DNA of 64,000 bases from assembly GCA_032718475.1 (NCBI GenBank), contig JAUCBJ010004543.1, positions 1-64,000 on the forward strand. The letters are read 5' to 3'. Source of the DNA: Nemertoderma westbladi. Taxonomy: Eukaryota; Animalia; Xenacoelomorpha. The notes beneath the pieces are model-generated. The model was not told the DNA's origin and did not search any database. It saw only the letters and a program-made list of their open reading frames with translations. Below are positions 1,785 to 53,301 of this stretch, piece by piece; position 1 is the first letter of the stretch; every line of letters begins with the position of its first letter. Made by a program: the position numbers and the translations under genes.

Positions 1785-1911
1785 ATTGGAATTGCAGTTT
1801 CAAAAGCTTCTGCAACTCTGGCAACTACGATATTCAAGGCTGGAACGGGATCAAATCAGGTTGAGATTATTAGAGAAAGTCTCTGTCATCAAATCCTGGA
1901 GTGTTGACGAG
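1785..1911 (+). CDS. Plakin-domain exon (phase 2->0)
   Basis: tttag| acceptor; LELQFQKLLQLWQLRYSRLERDQIRLRLLEKVSVIKSWSVDE; gag|gtaagt donor. Confidence 0.85.
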
Positions 1912-2156
1912 GTAAGTAAATCCTGGAGTGTTGTCGAGGTAAGTAAATCCTGGAGTGTTGACGAGGTAAGTAAATCCTGGAGTGTTGTCTAGGTAAGTAA
2001 ATCCTGGAGTGTTGACGAGGTAAGTAAATCCTGGAGTGTTGTCGAGGTAAGTAAATCCTGGAGTTTTGTCTTAAGTAAATCCTGGAGTGTTGTCGAGGTA
2101 AGTAAATCCTGGAGTGTTGTCGAGGTAAATAAATCCTGAAGTTTTGTCTTAAGTAA
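1891..2156 (+). repeat. 27-bp minisatellite (about 10 units) spanning the exon/intron junction
   Basis: unit aaatcctggagtgttg(a/t)cgag|gtaagt. Confidence 0.95.
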
Positions 2157-2248
2157 AACATTAACCATTCGTTTAAAGGGAGTTGACGAAAGGTCTCGAA
2201 CTGAAGCTAAAACAAAACAAAATTATTTTAATAATTGTTGTTTTTCAG

Positions 2249-2432
2249 TTCAATCAAATTTCGGTCGATGAACGTAAAAAAATATTCGACCAACTCAACG
2301 AAGATACCAGGAAACTAATCAAAGATTCCTACGAACCCGGTAGGGCCGTTGAGTTTGATCTCCATCAACTTCAGACCGAGGTGAACAACTGCAATCAACT
2401 GTATGAAGAGTTGGAGAGAGTCAACAGTATCT
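2249..2432 (+). CDS. Plakin-domain exon (phase 0->1)
   Basis: tttttcag| acceptor; FNQISVDERKKIFDQLNEDTRKLIKDSY..LEERVNSI-like helix; ct|gtaagt donor. Confidence 0.85.
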
Positions 2433-2793
2433 GTAAGTCTCCTGGCTATGTAGGTAGAGAAGAGACACTTATATGAGACGGGGGGATTAACTCTAATTGG
2501 TTAATTAATATCTCGTATCAGCGAATTAACATTGTTAATTATAAATTAAGGGAATGGAACAGATTAGAGTTGCATGTCTTTTTAACCAAAACAATAAACG
2601 GGAGTCAATAAGACAGGTCAAAGGTTAATGATCTTCCTCTATAAGTTTAATTATATTTTAGTCGTCACGTGTTACGAGGGTCGGTCCTGTTTACAGTTAC
2701 GTTCTAAAGTGGACGTACATCCGTCATTAATACTTATACCCAAACCCTAATTATAAAAAAAAACTGAAAATAATATTATTGGTTTTATTTTAG

Positions 2794-2937
2794 CTGATGT
2801 GGACGCAAATGACGCGGCTAGATTGATTTCGGAACTCAATTCCTTGCGTCAGGAACTCAGCGAAGTCGATCAGAATCTGGCAGGTGATCTACGAATGTCT
2901 ATACCAGGGGATGTACAAACCTTCAGTCGACTTATTC
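2794..2937 (+). CDS. Plakin-domain exon (phase 1->1)
   Basis: ttttag| acceptor; SDVDANDAARLISELNSLRQELSEVDQNL..SRLI; c|gtaagt donor; this frame is not the one in the ORF track. Confidence 0.8.
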
Positions 2938-3086
2938 GTAAGTGTTTCACGTTATTTTATTCATTTTGTGCATAAATTAAGTGACGGCGTGAGTGGACAC
3001 TATATGAGGACATACACAAAGATACAAACAATTCATTATAGATGTCGATGTTCCTTGATAAATCCACTAATATTTTCTTATTGCAG

Positions 3087-3276
3087 ACAAACAACAATTG
3101 TTACTAGCCAATCTCACATCGACTAAACAGTGCCAATACGATTTACTTCGGGTTAAAGTTGACTTGGTAGTAAACCAGAGGGGCGAGGCTTCTTGTTCGA
3201 GTCTCATACAAACGTTCGCGGGGCTCACTGAGATGTGGAACAGGATATTAACTCTCAGTCAATTATATCTTAGAAA
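3087..3276 (+). CDS. Plakin-domain exon (phase 1->2)
   Basis: ttgcag| acceptor; HKQQLLLANL..TEMWNRILTLSQLYLRK; aa|gttcgt donor. Confidence 0.8.
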
Positions 3277-3403
3277 GTTCGTTTTTTTTCAAGTTATTCG
3301 TAGATAATATTCAAAAATATTAATGTTATCAAGAAGCAGACAGAGTACCACCCCTCTGAGATAACACTGCGAGGTCTCTGCTACTATTACGTTTATTTTT
3401 TAG

Positions 3404-3542
3404 GTTGGAACTAGCCAAAGTCGTTTTGGAATGTATGAATTCAGTTCAAGGGTTCGTCTCTTCATTGGAGGAAATACTTGTGTCCCAAGATGCCACGCCC
3501 AACGACCTTAATCTTCTGAATAGGTTTAAAGATAAGTTAGAG
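3404..3542 (+). CDS. Plakin-domain exon (phase 2->0)
   Basis: tttttag| acceptor; LELAKVVLECMNSVQGFVSSLEEIL..PNDLNLLNRFKDKLE; gag|gtgagt donor. Confidence 0.85.
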
Positions 3543-4128
3543 GTGAGTCTCTGGTTGTAATAAGTAGTAATCGTTTAAATTTACAGGTAAATCATTTACA
3601 ATTGAGAGGTAAAACATCACGCATCATATTATAACTAGGAATGAAAATCCACATTTAACTTTAAGTATTACTAACGACATGTATCATGTGTTCATCACTG
3701 TAACGGGTAACATCACAGACGTAACAACTGAACGTGTTAAAACTATATTTAACTTCTGCAAGTGCGTGGGTGAAATTTAAATATTAGATTTAAATTTCAA
3801 TATTTATATATTAAATATTATTTTTGATCAACTATCTTTCTTTATTAAGACCTATTGTAACTTTTTATCAACAAAATGTTTAATATGTAGTTTTTTCATC
3901 ATTATGCCGTTACACCTGTGCAAGTACTTTACATTGTTTCGATCCTCGTATCCTTATTACCACTCACTCACTACGATCTTCCGTGTAACCAGATCAGTAC
4001 GATGTAAAGTATACTTTACACACTAATGTAAATACTTATTTAGTCTGTAATCTGAGGATCAGCGCACTGCTAAATCCCGGACAGGGTGAATTTATTATAT
4101 ATTATACCTTATAACTTATACCGCGCAG

Positions 4129-4325
4129 GAACTGTCCATGTCTATTCCTCCATACCAAGCGAATGTCGATCAGCTGTTAGAGGATACCGGTAAACTGGAG
4201 GCCGTTGCCTCAGACGAGAAGGACCTCTGTTTGGTCTCCCCGGATGTCGCTATCGTGAAGATCGGAAAGGAAGTCGCCATGACTGTGTCCCGGTGGGAGT
4301 TAGCAGCGGAGCAGATCGAACAGAG
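4129..4325 (+). CDS. Plakin-domain exon (phase 0->2)
   Basis: gcag| acceptor; ELSMSIPPYQANVDQLLED..SRWELAAEQIEQR; ag|gtgagt donor. Confidence 0.85.
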
Positions 4326-7206
4326 GTGAGTCAATGTGTAAACGGAACCCCACCGAGTAGAGGTGAGTCTATGTGTAAACGGAACACCACCGAATAGAGG
4401 TGAGTCAATGTTTAAACGGAACCCCACCAAGCAGAGGTGAGTCAATGTGTAAACGGAACCCCACCGAGCAGAGGTGAGTCAATGTGTAAACGGAACCCCA
4501 CCGAGCAGAGGTGAGTCAATGTTTAAACGGAACCCCACCGAGCAGAGGTGAGTCAATGTGTAAACGGAACCCCACCGAGCAGAGGTGAGTCAATGTTTAA
4601 ACGGAACCCCACCGAGCAGAGGTGAGTCAATGTTTAAACGGAACCCCACCGAGCAGAGGTGAGTCAATGTGTAAACGGAACCCCACCGAGCAGAGGTGAG
4701 TCAATGTGTAAACGGAACCCCACCGAGCAGAGGTGAGTCAATGTGTAAACGGAACCCCACCGAGCAGAGGTGAGTCAATGTTTAAACGGAACCCCACCGA
4801 GCAGAGGTGAGTCAATGTGTAAACGGAACCCCACCGAGCAGAGGTGAGTCAATGTGTAAACGGAACCCCACCGAGCAGAGGTGAGTCAATGTTTAAACGG
4901 AACCCCACCGAGCAGAGGTGAGTCAATGTGTAAACGGAACCCCACCGAGCAGAGGTGAGTCAATGTTTAAACGGAACCCCACCGAGCAGAGGTGAGTCAA
5001 TGTGTAAACGGAACCCCACCGAGCAGAGGTGAGTCAATGTTTAAACGGAACCCCACCGAGCAGAGGTGAGTCAATGTGTAAACGGAACCCCACCGAGCAG
5101 AGGTGAGTCAATGTTTAAACGGAACCCCACCGAGCATAGGTGAGTCAATGTGTAAACGGAACCCCACCGAGCAGAGGTGAGTCAATGTGTAAACGGAACC
5201 CCACCGAGCAGAGGTGAGTCAATGTTTAAACGGAACCCCACCAAGCAGAGGTGAGTCAATGTGTAAACGGAACCCCACCGAGCAGAGGTGAGTCAATGTG
5301 TAAACGGAACCCCACCGAGCAGAGGTGAGTCAATGTTTAAACGGAACCCCACCGAGCAGAGGTGAGTCAATGTGTAAACGGAACCCCACCGAGCAGAGGT
5401 GAGTCAATGTTTAAACGGAACCCCACCGAGCATAGGTGAGTCAATGTGTAAACGGAACCCCACGGAGCAGAGGAGAGTCAATGTGTAAACGGAACCCCAC
5501 CGAGCAGAGGTGAGTCAATGTGTAAACGGAACCCCACCGAGCAGAGGTGAGTCAATGTGTAAACGGAACCCCACCGAGCAGAGGTGAGTCAATGTTTAAA
5601 CGGAACCCCACCGAGCGTAGGTGAGTCAATGTGTAAACGGAACCCCACGGAGCAGAGGAGAGTCAATGTGTAAACGGAACCCCACCGAGCAGAGGTGAGT
5701 CAATGTTTAAACGGAACCCCACCGAGCAGAGGTGAGTCAATGTGTAAACGGAACCCCACCGAGCAGAGGTGAGTCAATGTGTAAACGGAACCCCACCGAG
5801 CAGAGGTGAGTCAATGTGTAAACGGAACCCCACCGAGCAGAGGTGAGTCAATGTTTAAACGGAACCCCACCGAGCAGAGGTGAGTCAATGTGTAAACGGA
5901 ACCCCACCGAGCAGAGGTGAGTCAATGTGTAAACGGAACCCCACCGAGCAGAGGTGAGTCAATGTTTAAACGGAACCCCACCGAGCAGAGGTGAGTCAAT
6001 GTGTAAACGGAACCCCACCGAGCAGAGGTGAGTCAATGTGTAAACGGAACCCCACCGAGCAGAGGTGAGTCAATGTGTAAACGGAGCCCCACCGAGCATA
6101 GGTGAGTCAATGTGTAAACGGAACCCCACCAAGCAGAGGTGACTCAATGTGTAAACGGAACCCCATCGAGCAGAGGTGAGTCAATGTGTAAACGGAACCC
6201 CATCGAGCAGAGGTGAGTCAATGTGTAAACGGAACCCCACGGAGCAGAGGAGAGTCAATGTGTAAACGGAACCCCACGGAGCAGAGGTGAGTCAATGTGT
6301 AAACGGAACCCCACGGAGCAGAGGAGAGTCAATGTGTAAACGGAACCCCACCGAGCAGAGTTGAGTCTATGTGTAAACGGAACCCCACCGAACAGAGGTG
6401 AGTCAATGTGTAAACGGAACCCCACCGAGCAGAGGTGAGTCAATGTGTAAACGGAACCCCACCTAGCAGAGGTGAGTCAATGTGTAAACGGAACCCCATC
6501 GAGCAGAGGTGAGTCAATGTGTAAACGGAACCCCACCTAGCAGAGGTGAGTCAATGTGTAAACGGAACCCCACCTAGCAGAGGTGAGTCAATGTGTAAAC
6601 GGAACCCCACCGAGCAGAGGTGAGTCAATGTGTAAACGGAACCCCACCTAGCAGAGGTGAGTCAATGTGTAAACGGAACCCCATCGAGCAGAGGTGAGTC
6701 AATGTGTAAACGGAACCCCACCTAGCAGAGGTGAGTCAATGTGTAAACGGAACCCCACCGATCAGAGGTGAGTCAATGTGTAAACGGAACCCCACCGAAC
6801 AGAGGTGAGTCAATGTTTAAACGGAACCCCACCGAGCAGAGGAGAGAGTCAATGTGTAAACGGAACCCCACCGATCAGAAGTGAGTCAATGTGTAAACGG
6901 AACCCCACCTAGCAGAGGTGAGTCAATGTGTAAACGGAACCCCACCGAGCAGAGGTGAGTCAATGTGTAAACGGAACCCCACGGAGCAGAGGAGAGAGTC
7001 AATGTGTAAACGGAACCCCACCGATCAGAGGTGAGTCAATGTGTAAACGGAACCCCACCTAGCAGAGGTGAGTCAATGTGTAAACGGAACCCCACCGATC
7101 AGAGGTGAGTCAATGTGTAAACGGAACCCCACCGAACAGAGGTGAGTCAATGTTTAAACGGAACCCCACCGAGCAGAGGTGAGTCAATGTGTAAACGGAA
7201 CCCCAC
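4318..7206 (+). repeat. 37-bp minisatellite (about 78 units) starting at the 5' splice site
   Basis: unit gtgagtcaatgt(g/t)taaacggaaccccaccgagcagag. Confidence 0.95.
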
Positions 7207-7990
7207 TGTACGAAGGTTAGTGGATCTTGGGTACCACGGTTTGTATCGCATTCTGGATGTTGATGTTTAGACTCTAAACTGTTTCTCATTTGGCTATAAA
7301 GGTATACTGGGTGTCACACCAGGTGGCCCTTCACTCCCTAGCAATCTCCAACTCATTAGTAGTGTTGCCACTATGCGAACCATGTGCTGTATTGCTCTTA
7401 TAAATTATTCCAATAACCGCATGTTATTCAGACTGGCGGTAATTCAAAACAATGTAATCAGTACAATTATTAATATGTTATTAGTCTAAAAGTAATAATG
7501 GTTGTTCATATTTATTGAAGTTTTCTAAGATTCATTTGCAGTTTTACTTTCAATTAAGGACATTTTACTTCAGCAGTCTATATCACAAATCATTCGCTCA
7601 TCACGATTTTCCAACATGAAAACCACTTCAGTTATTTCCTCATCAGTAACCTATCAGTATTATATGAATTATTGATTGATTGATTGATTGATATTAATTT
7701 ATTGACAACTGAAATGTTTAAAAAAATCCAAAACAAAATATATCAATGGATGCAAAGATATTCTATACGGATTTCCCATTCAACAGTAGAATTGAATTAT
7801 TTGAAATAACGATGTTAATACTTGACGTGATATTATATAAAATTGTAATTAATATAATTGTAATTAGGCCTATTTAGTTGAATTGTAATCTTTCTTTGGG
7901 GATGTAGTTCTAGCAGATTGCATATGAGTTGGGGGGTTTGTTAACTAGTCACAGACAATCAACCGTCGTATTATTGGTTAACTATTGGCA

Positions 7991-8685
7991 ATGACGGCCA
8001 CTTCTCCCGGCAATGCTATTCCCATGACTACCTCCAATCATTGCTACGAACCGCGCAACACGACAGCCTATAGCCGACTCATCACCTACCGTTGCCAGGG
8101 CGTCGGCACGTTCGCCGTATTGGTTGGTATGGAGTCGCCTATGGATGGTGAGCGAGCAACTCTGAGCGGCCGTCCTATTGGTTGTGTGTTGAACAACGGC
8201 CCCACATTCCACCAATCACAAACTCGCGATGTTCTCCTCAGCTCTTCCCCGGCTATGGTAACCTCGCAGCTATACCTGCTGGAGGCTATTTGTTCCGCCG
8301 TTGTTTGGAATATAGTCAGACAACCCTTTGATGACGTCATTGTATGTAAGGTGTTACCTAGAGCCGGACCATTGAGGATTCACAACGGGGTTGAGTTGAC
8401 CCCAGTTATCGTGAAACCCGACCTGCTTCCTTTCAGTCTCCTTCACCAATACAACTCGCCAACCAGGTGGTTCCGTTCAGCCGCCTACCCAATCAGATTG
8501 GTGGATTTACCGTGCGTTGCCAGTAGCAACATCTGCGTGAGTTCAACCATTGGTAGTGAAATTGAGGCCGCTGATAAGCCATTTCCTATTAATCAGAAGG
8601 TCACTGATCAGATAGTTTCCGACATTCGTGTGGTGATCGTAACCGAGGCTAATCCGTCTTCCTTAGTTACTTCCGTGTCGGAAAA
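7991..8685 (+). CDS. Candidate alternative first (or cassette) exon of the same gene
   Basis: A 232-codon GC-elevated open frame sits in an AT-rich intron. There is an in-frame stop at 7979-7981 and an ATG at 7991. It ends at aa|gtaaga in phase 2, matching the phase-2 acceptor at 9331. Confidence 0.5.
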
Positions 8686-9330
8686 GTAAGAATTGCTAAT
8701 TTTATATTTTTGAAATGATCATAATATTAAACACCCCTACACATATTACACCTCCACCGTTTTTTACCCTAAAATATTGACTTTTACAATATTTCTATAT
8801 GTTATTCAATTCCAATTTAATTAAGTATCATGATACATCACAATGGTTCTAGTTTATAGACTTGGTCATGGTTGGGAAAATATGTCACATAACAGCTGGA
8901 CATTTAATAGCGACGTAGGCTACACAGCTCTAGACGATTAACTTGATAATCTCACTGAACCTGAACCTGAAACATCAAATTAAATTAACAAACTAATCTT
9001 AACTACACAAACAAACTAAACAAACAAATCCTCTTATAATTAATGAATTGAGTTACTAGCTAACACCAACTAGCATATTCGGCTGATACACGCAATTTCG
9101 ATGAAATTTTAAAGAAATTCCACCAAAGATGTTTCATAATATGCTTATTTTTCATCTTCAATAGTTTAGTAAATGTTATAAATAATCTAATTTGGAGATA
9201 AAAATACTTTAATACTCACATAAAGTGAGTAAACATAAAGTGTCCTAATCCTCGTATCTTTATTTCCTCTCACTCACTAAGCTACGTTTTTCGTTTTGTA
9301 AAATGAACTATATTTCTCCCACCTCCTCAG

Positions 9331-9716
9331 GTATTCAAATATGTCCGCGGTATCAGATAGTCTTTCCAAGTATCTGACTGCGTGGGCGGACGAGGTCGAC
9401 TGGGTGGTTGACGCCGAATCGCGTCGTCCAGACGACACGGACTCCGGAACCGAGGATCAACCCGACTCCGGTACCTCCCCGACCGCTCTCGTCGATACCG
9501 CTAACCGACTCGCCAAGCAGTGGGACACCACCAACGATTACTACACGACGCTGACCAACCATCAACCCGCCATCGAGGCTCTCAACCAGACGGCCGATGG
9601 TTTCGTCCGCAGGGCTCAGACGATGGACGCATCGAGCGCGGAGTACCGGAGGAGACTAGAGGAAGTCGCCTATCTACGCTCCGTCGATACCGCAAAGAAA
9701 CCTAAGATTATTAAAG
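9331..9716 (+). CDS. Plakin-domain exon (phase 2->1)
   Basis: ctcctcag| acceptor; YSNMSAVSDSLSKYLTAWADEVDWVVDAE..AKKPKIIK; ag|gtgttt donor. Confidence 0.85.
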
Positions 9717-9960
9717 GTGTTTTAATATATTTTGCTATTATAAACATTAAAAATTGGATTCAGTTGTGAATCACTTTTTTACTGACTTATGAACTCTTTC
9801 TTGCATTACTTTTGTGCGAAACTTTGAGCATTGACTTATGGAATGACTTGTGCGCATTGACTATGACTATGTTCCGTTAACTTTTGCATTGGCTTTGATG
9901 TTTGTTTTGACTTGTCATTGACTTGTTTTGATTGTTAATTGTAGTTGTAATGATATCTTG

Positions 9961-10891
9961 TTTAAATTTCATTTTAATTATAAATACACAACAAATATTA
10001 CAGGCAGTAAATACAAATACGACGTTTCGGGTCCAGCAGGCACCATTATCAATGGTGCTATTAATAAATTCTTATCGCGCGTTCATGAACCACCCCCTGT
10101 TGTAACTACTGTACCTAAACGCCCCGTTACTTTTGTTTTACCCTATACCGGCAACCATACGCTAATATCATTAAGGCTAGACTACAACGTTTGTTTGAAT
10201 CTGTTTTCAGTCATATTTCTATTCGTGTTGGGTTTCGACCTACACGTAGTCTCAGCATTGTTTACCTATAAAGACAGACTACCTCTGCATATGCGCTCCA
10301 GTATTATTTACCATTTTACCTGTAGTAGCTGCTGTAACGCTACTTACGTCGGGAAAACCCGTCGTCACTTTGGAGTGCGTACGACTGAACATCGTGGTGT
10401 CTCTTACGCCGCAGGTAGACCCATAAGGTAGTAGATTCCTCTGTCCTTTCTCACAGTTTGGAATCTGACCATCCAATATCATCGTCTGACTTTAGAATTA
10501 TTACCTCTGCTAACCGCTGGCTAGATCTCTCCATAAAAGAAACTCTTCTCATTAAAGAATATCGACCACTGATCAACATCCAAAAATCATCATCCCTTGA
10601 GTTACGGCTACTGTAGTTATCTTATCCGGTAATCCAATCCTTGTTCACTTAGAACACCTGAATCCCTGATTGATGGTGTGTTTTTGCTTGATAGTATGTA
10701 CTGTACATAACTACTGCGGTAGGCCTCTTTCATTATTTATAATTTAGGTTAATTTTTTTCCCCGTTGTATTTAGTCAGTCTGTATATTGCCTTACTTACT
10801 TGATAATGGTGCCTGCTGGACCCGAAACGTCGTATTTGTATTTACTGCCTGTAACAATTGTTGTGTATATATAATTAAAATGAAATTTAAA
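9961..10891 (+). mobile_element. Penelope-like retroelement fragment (frameshifted GIY-YIG endonuclease) with ~92-bp inverted terminal repeats
   Basis: LPYTG..KDRLP..SSIIYHFTCSSC..YVGKTRRHFGVRTTEH is the GIY-YIG signature typical of Penelope-like elements. Bases 9961-10052 are a near reverse complement of 10800-10891. Confidence 0.85.
10796..10835 (+). ncRNA. Minimal hammerhead-ribozyme-like motif in the Penelope terminal repeat
   Basis: tac-TTGATAA-tggt..accc-GAAAC-GTC-gta: a U3-A8 variant of the CUGANGA core, then GAAA and a GUC cleavage triplet. Confidence 0.55.
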
Positions 10892-11199
10892 TGCGTTGTA
10901 ATTGCTATTGTTTTCTTAATTTCACTGCTAAGATTCCCCACCAATGAACCACTAACTGATATCTTGTTTATTCAATAATTATGTATTTCCTTTTGCTTAT
11001 GTTACTTTTGCATGGTTATAGACTTGTGCAATGGCTTTTGCATTGATTTTTCTTATTGACTTTTCCCATTGAGTTGTGCAGATGCATTAACTTCCACTTT
11101 GACACCATTTCTCAAATTATCTAAATTATTTATTATTACTGCCTTTTTTTGCAGGGAATATTGATAAATAGTACTAATTAATTATCCTATTTATTTTAG

Positions 11200-11315
11200 G
11201 CTGGGAGAATGTTACCACGGAGGCTGAACAGCTGAACAAACGTTACAACAACTTATTACAGGAAACCAGTGATTTACTCCAGGACATTACCTTTAAACTC
11301 CAAATGTCTCATCAG
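11200..11315 (+). CDS. Last plakin-domain exon (phase 1->0)
   Basis: ttttag| acceptor; GWENVTTEAEQLNKRYNNLLQETSDLLQDITFKLQMSHQ; cag|gtattt donor. Confidence 0.85.
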
Positions 11316-11592
11316 GTATTTCTATTTGTGGTGTGAAATATTACGTCGATTTTAAATGGAAGTTGGTGTGTCTCTGTGTCTGTTTTACAATATTTAAATG
11401 TGCATACTACCAGAATTAACCAGCATACTAACCAAAGTATTAAATAAAGCGATATTGAGCACACACAAATAAATTGGCAAGCATTATTTAAATTTAATAA
11501 AACAAGCGCGAAATCGCGAAAGGTCCGGGTCTACTAACGCATGAACTGTCTCCTTGAATGGCTGTACTACCAATCTTACAATAAAAAACATT

Positions 11593-11661
11593 CACCGGAA
11601 TGGGGGATTGAACACGGTACCTAGAGATTCCAAGTCCCACGCTCTACCAACTGAGCTAGGC
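11593..11661 (-). pseudogene. tRNA-derived sequence (tRNA pseudogene or SINE head)
   Basis: The reverse complement reads gcctagctcagttggtagagcgtgggacttggaatctctaggtaccgtgttcaatccc: A box and B box present, stems imperfect. Confidence 0.5.
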
Positions 11662-14102
11662 TTGGGGTGAAACAGACTGCTGGGAGGGGGGGAAAAAAAA
11701 TAAGAAAACCAGCAGGAAAACAAGGAAAAACAGAAAGGGGAAAAGAGGGAAAAGGGAAGAAAAAAAGAAAAAATTGTGAAAACATTAGACATATTGCTGA
11801 AATGATTTATTTTATAAGTAGATAAAAAAAGTATGGTTTTCATTTTTAAATAGGACATTATTTTAACTACTTCCATTGAAACCCCAGTCAAAAAATGTTC
11901 ATGCGTATCGCATGTGGGTCACGCATCTAATTCGCATGCGAATCGCATGGGAAAGTGTCGAGACCTTTAGAAGCGATACGCATGCGGATATCATGCGAAG
12001 TACCCATGCGTATCGCACGTGTCTAGCATGCGATTCTCTTCAGTGTAGAATAAACCAATGGCCATATATGACCAAATAAATTAACCCTATCTGGTCCGGT
12101 CTATTTTACTACTCAATTGGCCCAGGGGGGGAGGGGCAGAGGGGGTCATTTTAGACATTTGTTTATATCTTGGCTCAAAAATTATAATTTCGATGGTTTA
12201 AAGGTTTTCGAGGTCGATGTTTACGATAAAACTTGTTAAAAAAATATTCTGGCAATGCAACCATCATTTTTAGTGCCATCTGGTGCTCCAGAATGAAAAG
12301 TACAAAGTAGCAGAAATTTCAAACTGTTAAATTTTGCCTTTGAGCTAGGGCTGGGGTAAAACAGACTGTAAACAAGGGGGGAAAACAATTACGGGGAAAA
12401 ATGACCAGAGAGGGAGGAAAAACGCAGAAAAAGTAAAAACTCAATAATGTATTTTTGTGCCATACATATTTTTATTATAATTTTTATACATTTGTAAATA
12501 TTGAAACATCAATATTAATATTACAGTATATGAGAACATGTAGTATACATAAAATAGAGCATTGTACATTATAGAGTAACTTAAACAAATTTAACTTATT
12601 CAACTAATAATAAATAGGCCTTGCGAAATCATCTTACACGTTTAGTAAAGTCATTCAGCTCCTTATAGTGTCGTTATATTGTTCCAAAATCGATTTATTA
12701 TCAATGTAACGACATATGGCAGATTGCAGATGGGTCGTGTCCCCTTATAATATTTTTATGAACGAAGCCGTCAGGTATTTTATTGAAGTTTGCAATGTTA
12801 TAGCAGTTAGGGCATCTTCGTTTGTCTCTTATTGGCTCTCATCTATAATACCTCAAGGCCATAAGGTGTAGTCATTTGGGAGCAGCCTATTATATCTAAT
12901 AATTTAATACCACCAACCTCAACTATTGGATCTATTTTACTAAAATATCTTTAGTAAACAATTATCCTTTACGTCTAGCTATCAACGTAGGCTACTCTAC
13001 TCCTAAGACAAGGCTATGTTCATCTCAAAGATCCATTAGTTTTCAGGGCCAACAATATGGATCTCTGTCCCCTCTGCTGCCGTATAAGACATAAAAATCT
13101 AAAATACAGTACCCTTTTCGAAACACTCTAAACGTCACCTTCTAAATATATTAAAGTACACTTTAATCAATCAATCAAACATACATCTTACAAATTTTCC
13201 ATAACCTTTTCAATCCAATATTTTATATTTTATTTATTTCATAACTCGACTCATTAGTTTAGTTTTATATACCTGGAACAGCATCGGAACAACAGTGAAA
13301 CTATGTGCAGGAGATTAACGTAGAATAATTAATTATTTGTGTATTAACAGTAACAATCTCACACCTCACAATTCACATAATAGTAATATCCCACCCCCCC
13401 CCCCCCCCCTCCTTTTTTTTCACGCACTGCACACCACCCCTACCTGCCCGGCACTCCCAGACAATACATTGGGCTATAATACTAGCCTCACCATTGTCCA
13501 AAGTATTATTGTAACTTAACTTTTAATATTGTAATTATACAATATACTGTATATCTTACTCTATATGTGCAATGTGAATATCGGATTACCAATTAAACAA
13601 TAAAATTTAAACAATTGTCTTCTTTAGTCTAAAGTTCGCAACTGTTCGGTGGTCCACCCACACGAGCAAGACCATACACTACTGTACTACATATAGTACA
13701 TGCACGCACGTGTTGCACATGATGGGCGTACTTGACTGCGGGATTGCTGGAAATCCCCCCCCCCCCCCCCCCCCAAATTTATTTATTTATTTTTTTATTT
13801 TTTATTAAATTTATTTGCCCAAGTACATAAATAGTATTTTTTCCATAGTTAGAAAAACATTTCGAAGATATAAATGATAATATATTACACTTCTTTAAAT
13901 TTTTGTTGGTTTAGTTAATAATTTGTTACTAACTAATTTGTTTATTTGTTGGTTATATATATTTAATGTTTCTGTTAACACATATTATTTATATTTTTAA
14001 TTGTTTTTAGTGGGATGAAAGTTGCAGTGAGTTTACACGTTACCATTTTAGACTGTTTGTTTATTATTAATAAATAATTTTTACCAATACGTTGTGTTAC
14101 AG

Positions 14103-14184
14103 GTTGGTGCTACGGCTGGAATCCGCCCCACCATATCGGAGACACCAATCATATCTCGCATCGAACCTAAATCTACGTTTACAG
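14103..14184 (+). CDS. Linker exon (phase 0->1)
   Basis: ttacag| acceptor; VGATAGIRPTISETPIISRIEPKSTFT; ag|gtcagt donor. Confidence 0.7.
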
Positions 14185-14227
14185 GTCAGTTGATTATGTC
14201 ATTACAAATATGGACCAGGTGAGGTCA

Positions 14228-14954
14228 TGTTGAATTACTGGGAGCAAAACTTGGGATAGGAGTAGCGCCCACCCCTACCTTCGGGTAGCAGATAGGAGTA
14301 GCGCCCACCCGTACCTTCGGGTAGCAGATAGGAGTAGCGCCCACCCCTACCTTCGGGTAGCAGATAGGAGTATCGCCCACCCCTACCCTCGGGTAGCAGA
14401 TAGGAGTAGCGCCTACCCCTACCTTCGGGTAGCAGATAGGAGTAGCGCCCACCCCTACCCTCGGGTAGCAGATAGGAGTAGCGCCCACCCCTACCCTCGG
14501 GTAGCAGATAGGAGTAGCGCCCACCCCTACCTTCGGGTAGCAGATAGGAGTAGCGCCCACCCCTACCCTCGGGTAGCAGATAGGAGTAGCGCCTACCCCT
14601 ACCTTCGGGTAGCAGATAGGAGTAGCGCCCACCCCTACCCTCGGGTAGCAGATAGGAGTAGCGCCCACCCCTACCTTCGGGTAGCAGATAGGAGTAGCGC
14701 CCTCGCCTACCCTCGGGTAGCAGATAGGAGTAGCGGCCACCCCTACCCTCGGGTAGCAGATAGGAGTAGCGGCCACCCCTACCCTCGGGTAGCAGATAGG
14801 AGTAGCGGCCACCCCTACCTTCGGGTAGCAGATAGGAGTAGCGCCCACCCCTACCCTCGGGTAGCAGATAGGAGTAACGCCCACCCCTACCCTCGGGTAG
14901 CAGATATCGAGAGAGGAGCCTCCGGGTCGCCGCCGCCGGCCTCGGCCGACTGTT
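14228..14954 (+). mobile_element. 5'-truncated copy of the SINE-like element carrying about 18 x 36-bp tandem units
   Basis: Same left flank (actgggagcaaa-cttgggataggagtagcg) and right flank (atcga-agaggagc..cgggtcgcc..ggccgactgtt) as the 58287-62238 copy. Confidence 0.8.
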
Positions 14955-15002
14955 TTCTTGTTAAGGAAATTAATATGTTTTTATTTTAATTTTTATTCTT
15001 AG

Positions 15003-15075
15003 CTCCGAGTTCCATACCGGGTCGCTCTCAACCTGTATCTGTAGCTATTTCAGCACGTTCTGTTGTGACGTCTAG
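15003..15075 (+). CDS. Linker exon (phase 1->2)
   Basis: ttcttag| acceptor; APSSIPGRSQPVSVAISARSVVTSR; ag|gtaagt donor. Confidence 0.75.
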
Positions 15076-15240
15076 GTAAGTATAACGTGGTAAAACCACA
15101 CATTCATATGATATGCTATAACTTAGGCCTATCTTATAGCGGGGGGGGGGGGGGGGGGGGTACATACCAAGTTTATGCAACTTTAATCATTAATTAATTG
15201 TACGGATATCTGTTAATTCGGTTTAATTTATTTATTCTAG

Positions 15241-15379
15241 ACCTCACCCTCCCACTGTAGTAACCATGGTAACCACTACAGCTACTTCAACACCTACAAC
15301 AACTACGTCCACCACAACGCAAGCGCTATTCTACAAGGTACCGCAGCCACCGCCTGGCTCTATAGTAACGGAAGTAGAG
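15241..15379 (+). CDS. Thr/Pro-rich linker exon (phase 2->0)
   Basis: ttctag| acceptor; PHPPTVVTMVTTTATSTPTTTT..GSIVTEVE; gag|gtgtgt donor (an alternative in-frame donor aag|gtaccg lies near 15337). Confidence 0.7.
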
Positions 15380-15536
15380 GTGTGTAACGATACAGCGGTT
15401 AACGAAAATATATAATCTACTTATACTAAATAATACATTTAAACTTAATTATAATAACTTTCACTTTCTAACTTCTGTAACTTTCTTCTTCAAAAATATT
15501 TTTTTTGCTAATGAATATTTTACTTTTGTATCTCAG

Positions 15537-15674
15537 GAGGTGGAAACTGTCGAGACAGTATCGCACACCATCAAGCGGTTCCCAGTGGAACAATCGACCC
15601 CCGTGCGGGTGCAAAACCTAGATACCCCGCCGGAACGCAAGATGGCGAGGCACACAGCGTCCCACCACCCCCAG
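15537..15674 (+). CDS. Linker exon (phase 0->0)
   Basis: tctcag| acceptor; EVETVETVSHTIKRFP..ASHHPQ; cag|gtaact donor. Confidence 0.75.
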
Positions 15675-15925
15675 GTAACTATGGAAACCGTTACTCATAC
15701 TAGCAATGCTAAATTTAAAATAAAATTTACCAATAATAAATTATACCATTTTAATTAATTAATTTTAATTTAATTAATAAACTATTGGTTATTTAATAAA
15801 AGAACCCTCTTATTTAAGATTATACTGAACTAGAATACGGTTGTTGTCGATATTATTCCAATCTCTGAATCGTTTATTTAACTTATCAATTTGATATAAA
15901 CAAACTCTTCTATTTTTAATATAAG

Positions 15926-16163
15926 GTTGAATCTATACCAGACGAGGATTCCGCTAAGAGACAGACGAGTCGGAATATCAGACAAACTACACGATCCGTG
16001 GAACCGAACACCGGCCCCCCCAAGAAGCTCGCAAGAGCGACTACCGAAACGGAAGGTAGCGAAATCGACGGATTTCCGGAGTCCACGTCGAAGTCGACAA
16101 CGGAGAGACTCGAATCCAGTTCGCAGTCCGTCGTTATCGTAAAGACAGTCGTCGATTCCGAAG
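15926..16163 (+). CDS. Exon (phase 0->1)
   Basis: taag| acceptor; VESIPDEDSAKRQ..VVIVKTVVDSE; ag|gttcgt donor; joins the next exon to complete the motif DSE-GNK. Confidence 0.75.
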
Positions 16164-16486
16164 GTTCGTTTATATCGACGTAATATTTAGGCGGTCGTAG
16201 TCTACCGGATATGATGTAATGTACCTCGTCATACATTAGTGATCATCTTAACCGAATAACCGTCATATCTCCCAGATATGTCGTCATATCTCTCCTCTGT
16301 ACAGTAATATCTCCCTGGTATGTTGTTATGTATCCCTGATATGTTGTCATATCACATTGATATGCCTTTATATCCACTTTTCTTTACTTTACCAAAAGAA
16401 ACCATTTTCCCTTACGAAATCCCAACTGGCTTGGCATGGGATCGAACCAGGGACCTCCCAACTAGAGGAGAAATGAGAATATTTCT

Positions 16487-16822
16487 GAAGTTCGATGTTT
16501 GTCTGTATGTCTGTCTGTTATTTAGTCCGTTTTTGTAGAATTATTCAGACACTTATATCTCAGTCGTTCGTGGACGGATTTGGTTGAAACTTTGTAAGAT
16601 GACTCTGGGCGATGGTGTGCAAGTCAAGAAATAACCGGATTTCCGAAGTTCGATGTCTGTCTGTATGCCTGTCTGTTATTTAGTCCGTTTTTGTAGAATT
16701 ATTCAGACACTTATATCTCAGTCGTTCGTGGACGGATTTGGTTGAAACTTTGTAAGATGACTCTGGGCGATGGTGTGCAAGTCAAGAAATAACCGGATTT
16801 CCGAAGTTCGAATTCTGTCTGT
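16487..16822. repeat. 158-bp near-perfect tandem duplication (about 2.1 copies) with GTCT tracts, reminiscent of Helentron-associated (DINE/HINE-type) repeats
   Basis: gaagttcga starts at 16487, 16645 and 16803. Confidence 0.7.
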
Positions 16823-16857
16823 TATGGATTGATACTGATGGGCCACTAACAAACAGT

Positions 16858-17115
16858 ATTTTTTTTACGAGTGATTTTTTTTGCCAAACTTTTTATAGTT
16901 TTTTTTATGAATTTTTTTATTATATATATATTTTTTATATTTTATTAAATTTTTTATATTTTTATTATTTTTTTTATTTTTATTTTTTTTTTCTTTTTTT
17001 TATTTTTTATTTTTTTTTTTTATTTTTATTATTTTTTTATGAATTTTTTTATTTTTTTTATTTATTTTTTTTTTATATTTTTTTTTATGACTTTTTTTAT
17101 TTTTATTATTTTTTT

Positions 17116-17146
<31 letters not shown>

Positions 17147-17200
17147 TTTTTTATTATATTTATTTTACTATATTTTTTTAATTTTTGTGTATTTCTTTTA
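16858..17200. repeat. T/A low-complexity tract
   Basis: about 340 bp almost entirely T and A. Confidence 0.9.
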
Positions 17201-17343
17201 AAAAGTTGTAATTTAATATGTATTTCTGTGTGATACTCATGGGCTACCATACTACTATATCCCAGCTGATTGTTTCCCCATAAAGTTATGATTATAAAAT
17301 TATATTTCACTTTAGCGAAGAAAGAAATACTTTTTATTTTTAG

Positions 17344-17836
17344 GTAACAAGACGATTATACCCACCCGAGTGTCTGTGGACGACCCAGGTATCGAACAGC
17401 TGGTTGACCGTGGCCTGGTTCCGCCGACGGTGGGCCGGCAGCCGCGCGGAGTCGTCGAGATCACCCGGAGCACGGTAGACGAGGACGGCGCTCGGGTTGA
17501 GGCGAGTTTCTACGAGGCTACGGACCCCGCGGTCGCCTCGTTCCTCGCGGAGTCCGACCGGATCGGGACGGATCGTCGCCGCGTCGAGGACGACCGAACC
17601 GCGGCGGACGAGGGCGGGGATCTCGCCTCCCAATCGGTTCGCTATTCCGAGACCCGGAAGGAATCCTCCGAGCGGTTCGTCATCGTGACTCGGACCGCCA
17701 CCGACGAGGCCGGCAATCAGATAGAGGATCGTAAGAAATACAGAGCGGATGATCCAGAGATAGCGCATCTTCTAGAACTACAACAAACTGGGATCGAACC
17801 CACACCAGAGCCCAAAAGTTTCATTACTACTGATAG
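17344..17836 (+). CDS. Exon with hairpin-helix modules (phase 1->2)
   Basis: tttttag| acceptor; GC-rich ORF 17370-17840; ag|gtaagt donor. Confidence 0.85.
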
Positions 17837-18039
17837 GTAAGTTCATTCATTCCTTCATGTCCCGGCGTAAGGCCCACGTAGCTTTAATTAGTTTAATATA
17901 ATATAAAATAAAGACAAAACAAAGCATCACAGTAAGGTGGTAGGAACAATATTATAAAACGCTTCATCGTTTCAATGTCAAACGTTTCAATGTATGATGT
18001 GGTAGGTCTATAGGTTCCATCTGATTTCTCGTTTCATGG

Positions 18040-19597
18040 TAAATATATGACAAGACACTACCTATAGAAACAGGGGACTTCACACCTGCCGAACTCCAAA
18101 GAAGCATTAAAAGCATGTCCAATAATAAAGCGAATGGATTAGATGAAATCCCAGCGGAGGTATGGAAAACAGGAGTGCTAAACAGACCATTATTGAATGT
18201 TTGCAATCGGATGTTAAAAGGGGAAAAGCCACCACCAATTTGGACTAAAGGTCAACTAAAGCCTCTCCCCAAGAAAGGAGTCCTCGACATACCAACAAAC
18301 TATCGTGGGATCTGTCTGCTTGTGGTAGCTGCCAAAATATACAATAAAATGATTCTATATAGGATTAGGCCTCACATAGAGAAACTACTGCGTGAGAGCC
18401 AAAACGGATTTCGACCAAATAGATCAACAATAGCTCAGATACTTGCACTACGGAGACTGATTGAAGGAATTAAGTCAAAGAATCTCCACGCAGTCATGAC
18501 TTTTGTGGACTTCAAGAAGGCATTCGACTCCATCCATAGAGGTAAAATGCTTGAAATCCTAAGAGCTTATGGAATACCAGAAGTAATTATTGCTGGCATT
18601 GGATTGTTATATTGTGACACAGAAGCGCAGGTACTCTCACCAGATGGCGAAACTGAGTTTTTCTCAATCCTGGCTGGCGTACTGCAAGGCGACACATTAG
18701 CACCATTACTATTTGTAATTGTGCTGGATTACGCAATGAGGACGGCCACAAAGGGTGAAGATCTGGGATTCACACTTCAAGAACGCAGAAGTAGTAGATA
18801 TCCGGCAACTACAGTCACAGACACCGACTTTGCGGATGACATCGCCATGCTCTCTAATTACGCTAGCAGATGCACAGCTTCTACTAAATAAAGTGGAGAG
18901 GGCTGCTAAGGAGGTTGGATTGCATATAAATGCTACAAAAACCGAATTCATGACCTTTAATGTTGATGGAAACTTGACACCATTGATAATTATCAACTAA
19001 GGAAGGTCGACGACTTCCAGTACCTTGGATCATGGATAGAGAGTAGCAAAAAGGACATAGAAGTTAGGAATGCAAAGGCTTGGGTAGCTCTATCAAAAAT
19101 GGATACCATCTGGAAATCAGATCTCTCCAGGCACCTGAAGACTAAGTTCTTTCGAGCCACAGTGGAAAGTGTATTTTTATACGGGGGTGAGACCTGGACA
19201 CTGACTAAATCACTTGAACAACGAATTGATGGTTGCTACACAAGACTACTGAGGGCAGCCCTAAACATCAGCTGGAGACAACACATGACAAACACCGAGC
19301 TTTATGGTACAATACCACCTGTATCAATCACCCTCCGTGAACGCAGATTAAGATTCAGTGGGCACTGCTGGTGAAGTAAAGACGAGGTCATACCAGATCT
19401 ACTTTTCTGGCAACCAACTCATGGAAAGCGTAGTCGTGGATGACCGGCCATAACATATATAGATCAACTTGAAAGGGATACTGAACTCGGGAGAAACGAA
19501 ATTGCGACAACTATGGAGAATCGGGAAGCCTGGAAGGATCTCATTTTCACTGTCCGAGTTCGCTCGACCTAGTAGTAGTAGAGTAGAGTAGTAGTAG
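18040..19597 (+). mobile_element. 5'-truncated, decayed RTE-type non-LTR retrotransposon (reverse transcriptase)
   Basis: NYRGICLL, QNGFRPNRST, FVDFKKAFDSI, GVLQGDTLAPLLF, DFADDI, LYGGETWTLT and RLRFSGH motifs; frameshift near 18860 and internal stops; (AGT)n 3' tail at 19571-19597. Confidence 0.9.
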
Positions 19598-20019
19598 TTC
19601 TTTTAAGGTTATATCTGTGAGTGGCCAAGGATATTAAGGATGGCAATGCTGCCTTCCAATACATCATTAAGTATACGTTATATAATACGCAGTAATAGTC
19701 TCCATTTAGATGTAAACTGAGTAGTCGTCCAAACAGTGTTAGTTTATCATTGTTACTGTTGAAAAGGTTGTATTTTGATCTACATTATGCGCCGAAATCG
19801 CATCGATTAAATCAGGTGTACCGAAGAAGACATTTAGAACCGAATTTTTGACGCTGTTTCCTACCTGCTGAATACTTCGAATTCCTTTCCTACAAGAGAA
19901 TGTTGTTGTTTGCTTGTTAATGGCAGTCAAATTTAGGGAAGAAGATCCGTTGTAGAGAATGCTGGGGATGCAAATTGATATCCAAATTGTCGCAGTAAAG
20001 TATAATATAAAATAATATT

Positions 20020-20267
20020 GGTTATTTATATAGCGCTTTTCTACGCTCAGCATACTCAAAGCGCTTTTATTATCATTACCCTACCCCAGCAAAGCCAGGT
20101 TCCCATTATACCGCTGGGTTGGCGTAGGCACTAATGTCTAAAGTGTCTTGCCGACACAACAGTGCGAAATTTCTACAGCCTTTAGTCGGATTCGAACCTG
20201 CACCACCAAACACTATTGTCAGATTGTGTAAGCAGTTCAGGCGCCGTATCCACTCGGACACTGCGAC
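20020..20267 (-). mobile_element. tRNA-derived SINE
   Basis: On the minus strand: A box (gtgtccgagtgg), B box (ggttcgaatcc), central ggcaagacacttta..aatgggaacc, and an L2-like tail aagcgctttgag..aaagcgctatataaat. Confidence 0.7.
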
Positions 20268-20434
20268 ATCAAAGGCAAAGTAAGTTACTCCGTGGTTTAC
20301 AAAATGGAAACGATTATGTGTATAGTCAGTATTCTTTCAGTATTGTGCTTTCCCATTTTGGGCACACGCACTCGCTTAGGTAGAAGTGATTAATAATTTC
20401 TTCATTATCATATTTATTTTTACTTCATATTTAG

Positions 20435-20952
20435 GTATGTGGAAGTCAGTAAAGTTTCGTACGACGATGCTGGCAAGGAAATTGTCGAGGTGCGAAAGTT
20501 TAAAGCGGATGATCCCGCCATACAGGAGTTCATAGGAGACTCCGTGCTGGAGGAAGAGGTGACCATGACCCGGACATACCAGAACACGATAACAAAATCA
20601 ACCGAGGAGGAATATATCCCATTGAATCAGCTGCGGGAAGGGCCAACCGAGTGGGAAACTAAACTCTCCTTCCGGACGGCGGAAACTCCGGATTCTAGTC
20701 CGCGATCTCCAAGGGACGCTCCCGGGTCGCCACACGTGACTCTGCACGAGACGCAAAGCGTTTCCGAAACTGCGGGAAAGTACCTGGTGCTTACCCGGAC
20801 CTACATCAGCAAGGAAGGCGAGGAAACGTACGAGAGGAGGAAGATTAGTCCAAATGATCCCGAAGTTGCGAAACTTGTTGCCGACGGAGTTTTGGACCGG
20901 GATGATTATGTCGTAACCGACAAATATGTGGAAGTTACACGGACAGTTAAAG
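20435..20952 (+). CDS. Exon with hairpin-helix modules (phase 2->1)
   Basis: tttag| acceptor; YVEVSKVSYDDAGKEIVEVRKFKADDP..VEVTRTVK; ag|gttcgt donor. Confidence 0.85.
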
Positions 20953-21860
20953 GTTCGTAGATTTATCTTACTTGAAAATAGCGACTCCAATTAGTTTTAT
21001 ATGTAGATGAAAATGAGAAAACAAAATTCTAACCCTAAAAGTAAACCTTCAACTTATCCAAAATCATCAATCGTAGGCATAATATTCCACTGATCATCCT
21101 ATTTAATTTCCTCTCTATTTACATTATTTTTATTGTTATGGTTGTTTGGAAACACAACAATAGTGCCCAAAAGCTATGGTTCACTTTTTCATATTGAGGG
21201 ACTGCCCTGCTAAATGTTATTAATGACAGAATCAAATTGACCAAATTGACTTCTATTACAGGAATACAGGCAGAATTACATAGTGGACATCTCACACTTT
21301 CTTTTAACCACTAAATTTCTCAATTTCCGCTTATAGACTATAACTTCTTTAAAAGCCACGACAATGGCAAATTGAATGAAGCAAAAAATGTTTAATTTAG
21401 AGTTTAGAATACAAATTATAATAAATAATTTATATGGTCGATAAGTATGTTTTTGGACGTGTTAGAGTAAAATAAGGTTGTTTTCGAATGAGATAAACTT
21501 TACTGGTATTTTTTGCTGGCAGAATCGCACCGGTTGTCATGAGGCGAAATGAAGCTGTGGACAAATAAATATCGCGTATTTTACAACTTCAAAAATGTAC
21601 ATAATGGCGATAAATTGGAATTTCTAAGAAAATTTGTGCATAAAAATCACAGATAAATAAAACAAGAGGATAGGTAATTAATTTGTCTTTTGTCAACGGA
21701 ACACAGATAATATATTATCAAAACCCGTATTACTTTTTTGTGTTTTCAACCATCAGTTGATTATTTTATATAACGGTGATCGTAGGTCTGTAAAACGCGG
21801 TTCCTGATCCTGTTACGTATTTCATTGAAGAATTTGCGGATCCCAATAGGATCCTCTGAA

Positions 21861-22024
21861 CTTGAGACGCATCTTAAAGGACACTGGCCTTGAAGATGCG
21901 GATGATCGAGCAAATGTCATGGGTGATAGGGAGTTGTGGCGGCGCAATTTTGTCGACAAACCGGCACAGCATTCTTAAACATGCAACTGCAATACAGCAT
22001 GCCGATCCTAGTGTCAGTAGTACT
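21861..22024 (+). mobile_element. Short 3'-end copy of the LINE at 56400-57292
   Basis: cttgagacgcatcttaaaggacactggcc..gccgatcctagt is nearly identical to 57127-57285. Confidence 0.85.
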
Positions 22025-22632
22025 GATCCTAGAAAATGCGGTACCTCAGAGAAAATTAATAGCAATAAATCCATATCCTGGGAAAGCCCAATCTATTAGT
22101 CTAGTTGTATTAGTCTAGTAGTTTGCATTTCCTGTGATACTGAAGCGGCGGCCAAATTGCAGATTATTAATCAATAAAGATTTTACAGCGATGATATTAT
22201 TGAAGACCGACAACACCCGCTGGATAGGTTTAACTTTTTGATCTTTTTATCTTTATGACCTGGAGATTGGCAGCTGCTAACACAGGAATGTAAATCCAAC
22301 TAATAGTTGTGGTTTTCGATTCAGGACTCGTTGAACTATTTCCTCAGTGGATGAGGATGGTTGGTGAGGTCCCTCTGGTTCGTTTGCAATAATTTGGGGC
22401 ATCCCAGTATTATTCTACAGTCTATGGAATAGCGGCTGTATACCTGTATTGCTTTTCAATTAATGTCACAGCCCAATATTAGATCCGTGGATCCGCAGAC
22501 CAACTGAGCTCCGTTAATGCTTCTGTATTATATATCCGTTACACGATCCTTGGATTTTTCTGGGTTCTTCGTTTTGTAGGGGTACCTGTATTTCTTGGTT
22601 TTTATTGCATCTCAAAATCATTTTTCTTGCAG

Positions 22633-52987: not shown

Positions 52988-53301
52988 GTGAGTTTATGTA
53001 ATGTAATTCAGTTCCACTTTCTAATTGGCTACATCATTAGTGTTGTTTTTCTGTTACTTTACTATTTAGACTAATTGATTTCCAACTCTGGGAACAGCAA
53101 TAAAACGATTCGTATTTCCCTCCAAAAAAGTTGATGGGAAGGTGGTGTTGTGTGGGTGGGGCCGGTGCACGGGCAGCTGACACGCTGCCCGTGGGTTCCA
53201 GGGGGAATTTCAAATTTTTCATAAATTTTTTTATTGTGTTTAACCTGAAAGCCTATTATTACTAATTACCCATACTGAACTACCGACTTTATCGCCCATA
53301 G

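What the first reader, a model, noticed from the sequence alone, without database searches (positions are those of the whole stretch)
4318..7206. About 78 tandem copies of a consensus 5' splice site directly behind the true donor
Seen: the 37-bp unit includes the last exon bases plus the donor (cagag|gtgagt), so most units are equal-strength U1 sites. Reading past the first donor gives AGG-TGA, so using any downstream donor introduces a premature stop. Inference: the spliceosome must select the first of dozens of near-identical donors. The array may act as a U1 decoy, a copy-number-dependent NMD rheostat, or protection against premature polyadenylation in a very long transcript.
Basis: partly seen in the sequence, partly recalled or inferred. 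Interest (0 to 1): 0.7.

Follow-up and report, generated by a model that had tools for sequence, protein, structure and literature searches.

The report
Repeated splice donor in plectin-like gene
A 37-base piece covering the end of one exon and its splice signal is repeated 78 times in a row in an animal plectin-like gene; the cell likely keeps using the first signal, so this is probably a near-harmless new example of a repeat type already known from human and lancelet genes.

Summary
The array is real: 4317-7206, 78 head-to-tail units of 9 exon + 28 intron bases; 71 keep GT and 65 read GAG|GTGAGT. The host is a plectin-like (plakin-domain) gene. Donor 4325 joined to acceptor 9331 aligns without gaps to a hemichordate relative, and any later donor retains an in-frame TGA. 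The architecture is known: human F7 (also 37 bp), ABCA7 (12-427 copies) and amphioxus 'mirages'. This scan has also noted it on other DNA (25 findings, at least 11 genomes). The proposed functions get no support. Donor columns carry 5 of 17 variant alleles (4.1 expected; low power). The intron has only two polyadenylation hexamers, 1.5 kb past the array. In ABCA7, second-donor use and NMD did not change with copy number. Best reading: a young, drifting minisatellite tolerated because the first donor wins and leaks go to NMD. No RNA could be examined, so donor use is inferred. Residual interest: the donors are near-consensus at a spacing where downstream sites can compete; a second, in-frame 27-bp donor array lies at 1891; and a possible internal first exon lies 0.8 kb downstream.

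The parts
4317..7206 (+). Donor-spanning minisatellite: 78 units (76 x 37 bp, 2 x 39 bp), each 9 exon bases + 28 intron bases; 71 intact GT donors
4129..4325 (+). Coding exon (6th in the window) whose last 9 bases seed the unit; authentic donor after 4325, phase 2
4327..4329 (+). In-frame TGA retained if any later donor is used
9331..9716 (+). Next coding exon; its junction with 4325 is gap-free against the plectin-like relative P0001
1891..2157 (+). Second donor-spanning array: 10 units of 27 bp (21 exon + 6 intron bases), 8 with GT; donors 2 and 3 are in frame (+9, +18 residues), unit 4 carries a stop
7991..8685 (+). Candidate internal first (or cassette) exon: ATG-started open frame ending on a donor-like site in phase with exon 9331, CCAAT-rich; unproven
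1785..64000 (+). Host gene: plectin-like plakin-domain exons followed by a 30,355-base exon (22633-52987); incomplete at both window ends

Best explanation
The array is a minisatellite made of 78 tandem copies of the last 9 exon bases and first 28 intron bases of a plectin-like gene; it likely arose by local duplication and slippage, the spliceosome likely keeps using the first donor, and rare use of a later donor would give a stop-containing mRNA predicted to be removed by nonsense-mediated decay, so the array is probably close to neutral. Shown: the unit anatomy, local origin of the unit, the stop codon, the conserved 4325-9331 junction, and no excess conservation of the donor. Inferred: duplication and expansion mechanism, first-donor use (by analogy with F7 and amphioxus), NMD of leaks, neutrality.
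For: The unit equals the exon-intron junction and ends exactly at a unit border; it occurs nowhere else in the window. Variants are clustered along the array as in ordinary turnover: -8 G>T only in units 59-75, -6 G>T only in 67-76, and a 9-unit block repeated at units 9 and 38. Divergence is 2.3% per base, like the non-donor arrays at 3.8% and 2.8%. Donor columns are neither protected nor purged: 5 of 17 alleles in 9 columns (4.1 expected), with no dead donor among units 2-31 or 74-78. The first-donor product aligns gap-free across the junction to P0001 (190 bits, E 9e-58), named Saccoglossus plectin-like. Precedent: F7 37-bp VNTR uses only the most upstream functional donor (PMC1557585); ABCA7 tolerates 12-427 units (PMC5954066); amphioxus mirages do not disturb regular splicing (PMC3087553).
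Against: No transcript was seen, so first-donor use is unproven. The donors are near-consensus, one base from the CAG/gtgagt sites that took about 70-90% of splicing from a weak upstream site in F7. With two strong donors, use of the intron-proximal one rises beyond about 30 nt and is about 100% at 45 nt or more (PMC3413131); 37 nt lies in that zone. Counted as changed bases, donor columns vary somewhat less than the rest (1.33-1.44 vs 1.90-1.93 per column), mostly because of one common variant at +13. The conservation test has only 17 alleles. Two of 18 donors carry arrays, more than uniform placement predicts (P about 0.002-0.004, post hoc), which simple drift does not explain. An intact reading frame says little about an array this young.
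Confidence: 0.72

Rival explanations
1. The array is unselected but leaky. Near-consensus donors at 37-nt spacing divert a real share of splicing to later donors or cause exon skipping, all out of frame, so the long plakin isoform is reduced by NMD, perhaps more with more copies.
For: Donor strength and spacing. Second and third donors are used in 6-16 and CBS (second-hand, Introduction of PMC1557585). ABCA7 shows low second-donor use and length-dependent skipping of the next exon. Skipping exon 4129-4325 or 9331-9716 would shift the frame (phases).
Against: In ABCA7, second-donor use and NMD were independent of length. Costly leakage should favour donor-killing variants near the start or the end of the array, and none are there. 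LMNB2 (100 bp) and PDGF (81 bp) arrays use only the authentic donor despite wide spacing (second-hand).
Confidence: 0.17
2. The array acts at the DNA level. Each unit carries a TGAGTCA heptamer (AP-1 consensus, recalled) overlapping the donor, so about 70 tandem sites would enhance a candidate internal promoter and first exon 0.8 kb downstream that encodes a short isoform lacking most of the plakin domain.
For: 70 of the window's 85 TGA(G/C)TCA matches lie in the array. The +5 variant in unit 50 keeps the heptamer while weakening the donor (n=1). The frame at 7982-8689 is longer than in 1000 of 1000 shuffles, ends on a donor-like site in phase with exon 9331, and holds 10 CCAAT/ATTGG words in 761 bases, the window maximum (mean 2.0). 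Plakin genes use alternative promoters (PMC4914211).
Against: The heptamer follows almost automatically from GTGAGT plus two bases, and it is broken in 8 of 78 units. The candidate exon has no homologue or family. Its donor scores only 2.2 on the window matrix and is not among the top 8 GT sites of 7210-9300; the phase match has a 1-in-3 chance. No transcript evidence.
Confidence: 0.05
3. The array was selected as a U1 landing strip: a decoy, or protection against premature polyadenylation in a very long transcript.
For: 65 near-consensus U1 sites exist in a gene of more than 62 kb with a 30-kb exon; changed-base counts are slightly lower in donor columns.
Against: No excess conservation by alleles. 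Only two ATTAAA in the intron (8726, 8979), beyond the roughly 500-1000 nt range quoted in PMC4889658. The giant exon (35 hexamers) and intron 11316-14102 (13) have no array.
Confidence: 0.03
4. Each unit is formally a 37-base GT...AG intron, so the array could be removed by recursive (ratchet) splicing that regenerates the donor.
For: Every intact unit runs from GT to an AG directly followed by GT.
Against: No U-rich tract: U fraction 0-0.06 vs 0.25-0.69 at 19 authentic acceptors. Matrix scores of -8.5 to -15.8 sit at the 22nd-50th percentile of 1506 ordinary intronic AGs and below all leave-one-out authentic scores (minimum -5.3).
Confidence: 0.01

Closest known systems
Human F7 intron 7 VNTR (Borensztajn et al. 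2006, PMC1557585; seen: abstract, Introduction, sections 6, 9, 12, 13)
   Same: 37-bp unit whose first copy spans the exon-intron boundary; identical pseudo-donors follow the authentic one.
   Different: 5-9 copies vs 78; 4 exon bases vs 9; weak donor (consensus value 74) vs near-consensus here; first-donor use was shown there and is only inferred here. The sequences were not compared; the equal unit length is taken as coincidence.
Human ABCA7 intron 18 VNTR (De Roeck et al. 2018, PMC5954066; seen: passages and section 21)
   Same: Donor repeated in every unit; large copy numbers (about 12-427); use of the second donor gives a premature stop and NMD.
   Different: 25-bp unit starting at GT; length affects skipping of the next exon and expression. 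No such data here.
Amphioxus 'mirage' minisatellites (Adh3, globins BflGb6/BflGb9; PMC3087553; seen: passages)
   Same: Tandem duplications of exon-intron boundaries in an invertebrate, found at several loci; Adh3 units of 10-72 bp; no interference with regular splicing reported.
   Different: Globin units are 150-160 bp with few copies and include acceptor-side arrays; here 2 of 18 donors and 0 of 18 acceptors carry arrays.
CBS intron 13, interferon-inducible 6-16, LMNB2 and PDGF minisatellites (second-hand, from the Introduction of PMC1557585)
   Same: Boundary-spanning minisatellites with 10-25 repeated donors.
   Different: In CBS and 6-16 two further donors are used; unknown here.

Membership tests
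Donor-spanning minisatellite (F7 type / mirage) | Head-to-tail array whose first unit spans an authentic exon-intron boundary | tested here: met
   Unit 1 = 4317-4353 spans donor 4325; the junction is supported by the gene model and homology
Donor-spanning minisatellite (F7 type / mirage) | Donor sequence reiterated intact in the intron | tested here: met
   71 of 78 GT, 65 of 78 GAG|GTGAGT
Donor-spanning minisatellite (F7 type / mirage) | Unit derived from the local sequence, not from a dispersed element | tested here: met
   Unit includes the coding exon end; no copy elsewhere in the window. The whole genome is not held, so only the window was checked
Donor-spanning minisatellite (F7 type / mirage) | Copy number varies between alleles (VNTR) | not testable with these tools
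   One haplotype only; no genome and no runs were available. Clustered variants suggest turnover
Donor-spanning minisatellite (F7 type / mirage) | Transcripts use mainly the most upstream donor | not testable with these tools
   No RNA run was listed; only the first donor gives an open, homologous frame
Recursive splice sites | AG|GT preceded by a functional polypyrimidine tract | tested here: not met
Selected U1 telescripting element | Conserved U1 sites within about 1 kb upstream of polyadenylation signals | tested here: not met
   No excess conservation by alleles (low power); nearest AATAAA/ATTAAA is 1.5 kb downstream
Plakin family (host gene) | Plakin-domain spectrin repeats homologous to plectin | tested here: met
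   Exons align to P0001 at E 9e-58; P0001 matches solved plectin chains at E 4.7e-29 and Pfam Spectrin, SR_plectin_7 and Spectrin_2
Spectraplakin (host gene) | Actin-binding domain at the N-terminus; spectrin rod, EF hands and GAS2 domain at the C-terminus | not testable with these tools
   Both gene ends lie outside the window; three scanned pieces of the long exons gave no plectin-repeat hit

The most novel reading that the evidence does not exclude
The array is a copy-number dial on plakin isoforms: its near-consensus donors leak the long isoform into NMD, while its roughly 70 AP-1-like sites drive an internal first exon at 7991-8685 that bypasses the array, so repeat length sets the ratio of full-length to plakin-domain-less protein. 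Two donor arrays in one gene would then point to a lineage-wide bias for amplifying donors.
Probability: 0.07. Interest if true: 0.65.

Novelty: new member of a known kind. Interest (0 to 1): 0.22.

Why it matters
As read here it is ordinary: one more donor-spanning minisatellite, within the copy-number range known from ABCA7. Its modest value is as a natural test case. The F7 sections I read describe no construct with a long run of equal, near-consensus donors, and published rules disagree for that case (first-donor scanning in PMC1557585, intron-proximal preference for strong sites in PMC3413131). One RNA data set from this species would show which rule holds in vivo. The in-frame 27-bp array in the same gene is an internal control, because its leak products would escape NMD.

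Tried and rejected
1) RNA evidence: no RNA holder was listed for exon 9300-9760; this is no evidence either way, and no reads could be laid. 2) No whole genome is held, so no genome-wide count of donor arrays was possible. 3) Hairpin masking of later donors (CACC of one unit pairing with the next donor): rejected. Opening energy is 4.53 kcal for the first donor vs a median of 4.65 for the other 77, and 48% of 500 shuffled units cost as much or more. Local folding did show the first donor somewhat more open (0.043 vs median 0.007), but within the range of the others (0.001-0.107). 4) Recursive splicing: rejected. 5) Origin from a dispersed element: no copy elsewhere in the window and no exact match in metagenome contigs (a weak test for an animal). 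6) Known RNA family: none in 4000-9400. 7) Single-exon searches mostly failed: PDB, homologue search, Atlas. The full HMMER search gave 2 hits, P0001 (true relative) and P0002 (dropped: unrelated repeat protein). 8) An older degenerate unit just after the array (7207-7245): P = 0.056 against shuffles, not accepted. 9) ORF 7991-8686: no family or homologue; its codon score is driven by stops in other frames and was not used. 10) PMC10078293 and PMC2812944 (passages only) added only that repeats at exon-intron boundaries can alter splicing. No supplements were read; they might list further arrays of this kind.

Full report
Observation. The array is present at 4317-7206 with period 37, 78.0 copies and 95% matches. 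Cut into units, 76 of 78 are 37 bp and 2 are 39 bp; there are 21 unit types and the commonest has 29 copies. Each unit is the last 9 bases of exon 4129-4325 plus the first 28 intron bases, and the array ends exactly at a unit border with no shared bases at the breakpoints. 65 of 78 units read GAG|GTGAGT, 71 keep GT, and units 32, 37, 53, 55, 56, 69 and 73 have lost it. GAG|GTGAGT ties for the top score on a matrix built from the gene's own 18 donors and matches 8 of 9 positions of the consensus given in PMC1557585. Reading through the first donor gives AGG TGA.

Host gene. A 19-exon model from 1785 to the window end is GT-AG throughout and open for 11,618 codons, including one exon of 30,355 bases. 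Exon 2249-2431 has a sub-threshold Pfam Spectrin_2 hit. A full HMMER search with it returned 2 proteins. P0001 is Saccoglossus plectin-like and matches solved plectin chains at E 4.7e-29; P0002 is unrelated and was dropped. The first ten exons align to P0001 over 499 columns (26% identity, E 9e-58), without a gap across the 4325-9331 junction or the 1911-2249 junction. So the first donor is the ancestral one. The gene is a plakin; 'spectraplakin' is likely from the giant exon after the plakin domain but was not testable. The species was not identified.

Is the donor selected? Among 17 distinct substitution alleles, 5 fall in -3..+6 (4.1 expected), 3 in +1..+6 (2.8 expected) and 2 in GT (0.9 expected); the 2-base insertion in two dead donors is not counted. 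Counted as changed bases, donor columns vary a little less than the rest (1.33-1.44 vs 1.90-1.93 per column), largely because of one variant at +13 carried by 18 units; GT itself varies more (3.5 vs 1.7). Twelve of 17 alleles lie in 14 columns covering the exon-derived part and donor (scan-corrected P about 0.05), which is opposite to donor protection. Nor are donors purged where they would matter most: units 2-31 and 74-78 are all intact. Power is low. Variants cluster along the array (-8 G>T in units 59-75, P < 0.001; -6 G>T in 67-76, P = 0.003), a 9-unit block recurs, and divergence (2.3% over 75 units) resembles the 22-bp array (3.8%, 73 units) and the short 36-bp array (2.8%, 17 units); my parse of the long 36-bp array recovered only 10 units and was not used. 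This is ordinary minisatellite turnover.

Mechanisms tested. Structure does not single out the first donor: opening energy is 4.53 vs a median of 4.65 kcal, with 48% of 500 shuffles as high. Local folding makes the first donor somewhat more open but within the range of the others. The unit's AGs lack a U-rich tract and score like ordinary intronic AGs, so recursive splicing is unlikely. Intron 4326-9330 has no AATAAA and two ATTAAA, at 8726 and 8979, more than 1.5 kb past the array; the giant exon has 35 such hexamers and intron 11316-14102 has 13, without arrays. The protective range of U1 is quoted as about 500-1000 nt (PMC4889658, passages). Telescripting is therefore a poor fit.

Comparison with known cases. 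PMC1557585 (abstract, Introduction, sections 6, 9, 12, 13) describes the human F7 37-bp VNTR with the same layout: only the most upstream functional donor is used, later ones take over in order when it is mutated, and only perfect sites compete (about 70-90%). Its Introduction lists 6-16, CBS, LMNB2 and PDGF (second-hand). PMC5954066 (passages, section 21) reports 12-427 donor-bearing units in ABCA7, with low second-donor use leading to NMD that is independent of length, and length-dependent skipping of the next exon. PMC3087553 (passages) describes amphioxus 'mirages' that do not disturb regular splicing; I took that label from this scan's earlier notes and checked it in the paper. Those notes hold 25 similar findings in at least 11 other genomes (unchecked AI notes), and none for this genome or sequence. 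Neither the layout nor the copy number is new.

What speaks against the simple reading. No transcript could be examined, so first-donor use is inferred. PMC3413131 (passages) reports that with two strong donors the intron-proximal one gains beyond about 30 nt and wins at 45 nt or more. The donors here are one base from the perfect F7 test site and 37 nt apart, so some leak is plausible. All leak products, and skipping of either flanking exon, are out of frame (phases) with many junctions downstream, so NMD is expected from general knowledge. The assembled copy number could not be checked against reads.

A second array. At 1891-2157 the donor of the first exon is repeated in 10 units of 27 bp (21 exon + 6 intron bases), 8 with GT. 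Donors 2 and 3 stay in frame and add 9 or 18 residues that appear as gaps against P0001 (85.1, 77.4, 73.9 bits); unit 4 has a stop. Two of 18 donors and 0 of 18 acceptors carry such repeats. With 4-6 arrays in the window, two at donors has P about 0.002-0.004 under uniform or GC-matched placement, post hoc and from one gene. This hints at a bias in origin or survival, as suggested for amphioxus, but not at function.

A possible internal first exon. 7991-8685 is an ATG-started open frame (235 codons stop to stop, longer than in all 1000 shuffles) ending on a donor-like site in phase with exon 9331, in the most CCAAT-rich stretch of the window. It has no homologue or family and its donor scores low on the window matrix. 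A candidate acceptor at 8437 would make an in-frame cassette instead. 70 units contain TGA(G/C)TCA, recalled as the AP-1 consensus. Plakin genes use alternative promoters (PMC4914211, passages). This supports only a low-probability rival.

Verdict. A real, young donor-spanning minisatellite of a known kind, most likely tolerated rather than selected (0.72). A leaky, dosage-affecting version is the main rival (0.17). Interest 0.22.

Noticed in passing
window 1891-2157: Second donor-spanning array (27 bp x 10) in the same gene; donors 2 and 3 are in frame and would add 9 or 18 residues; AAA is shared at both breakpoints.
   Followed up: yes
window 7982-8689: 235-codon open frame in the intron, ending on a donor-like site in phase with exon 9331, with 10 CCAAT/ATTGG words; candidate internal first exon or cassette (acceptor 8437); no homologue found.
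   Followed up: partly
window 22633-52987: Single coding exon of 30,355 bases (about 10,118 codons) with an internal array of repeats of about 368 residues (1104-base period); no convincing Pfam hit in the two end pieces scanned.
   Followed up: partly
window 14255-14906 and 58423-62188: The same 36-bp minisatellite (18 and 104 copies) with shared flanks on both sides, so it is carried inside a dispersed element; the second copy is preceded by a tRNA-like head by eye (about 58288-58360), which ARAGORN did not call.
   Followed up: partly
window 54109-55812: 22-bp intronic minisatellite, 77.5 copies, not at a splice site; used as a neutral control.
   Followed up: partly
window 18043-19560: LINE-like element fragment with a reverse transcriptase hit (RVT_1, E 8.7e-25) in an intron; similar-looking pieces near 56400-57260.
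   Followed up: no
window 9920-10900: Insertion flanked by an inverted sequence (about 9990-10050 and 10800-10880, by eye) with a 169-codon frame resembling the end of a retroelement by recall; no Pfam hit.
   Followed up: no
window 7207-7245: A donor-like site at 7215 just after the array may be an older degenerate unit; P = 0.056 against shuffles.
   Followed up: yes
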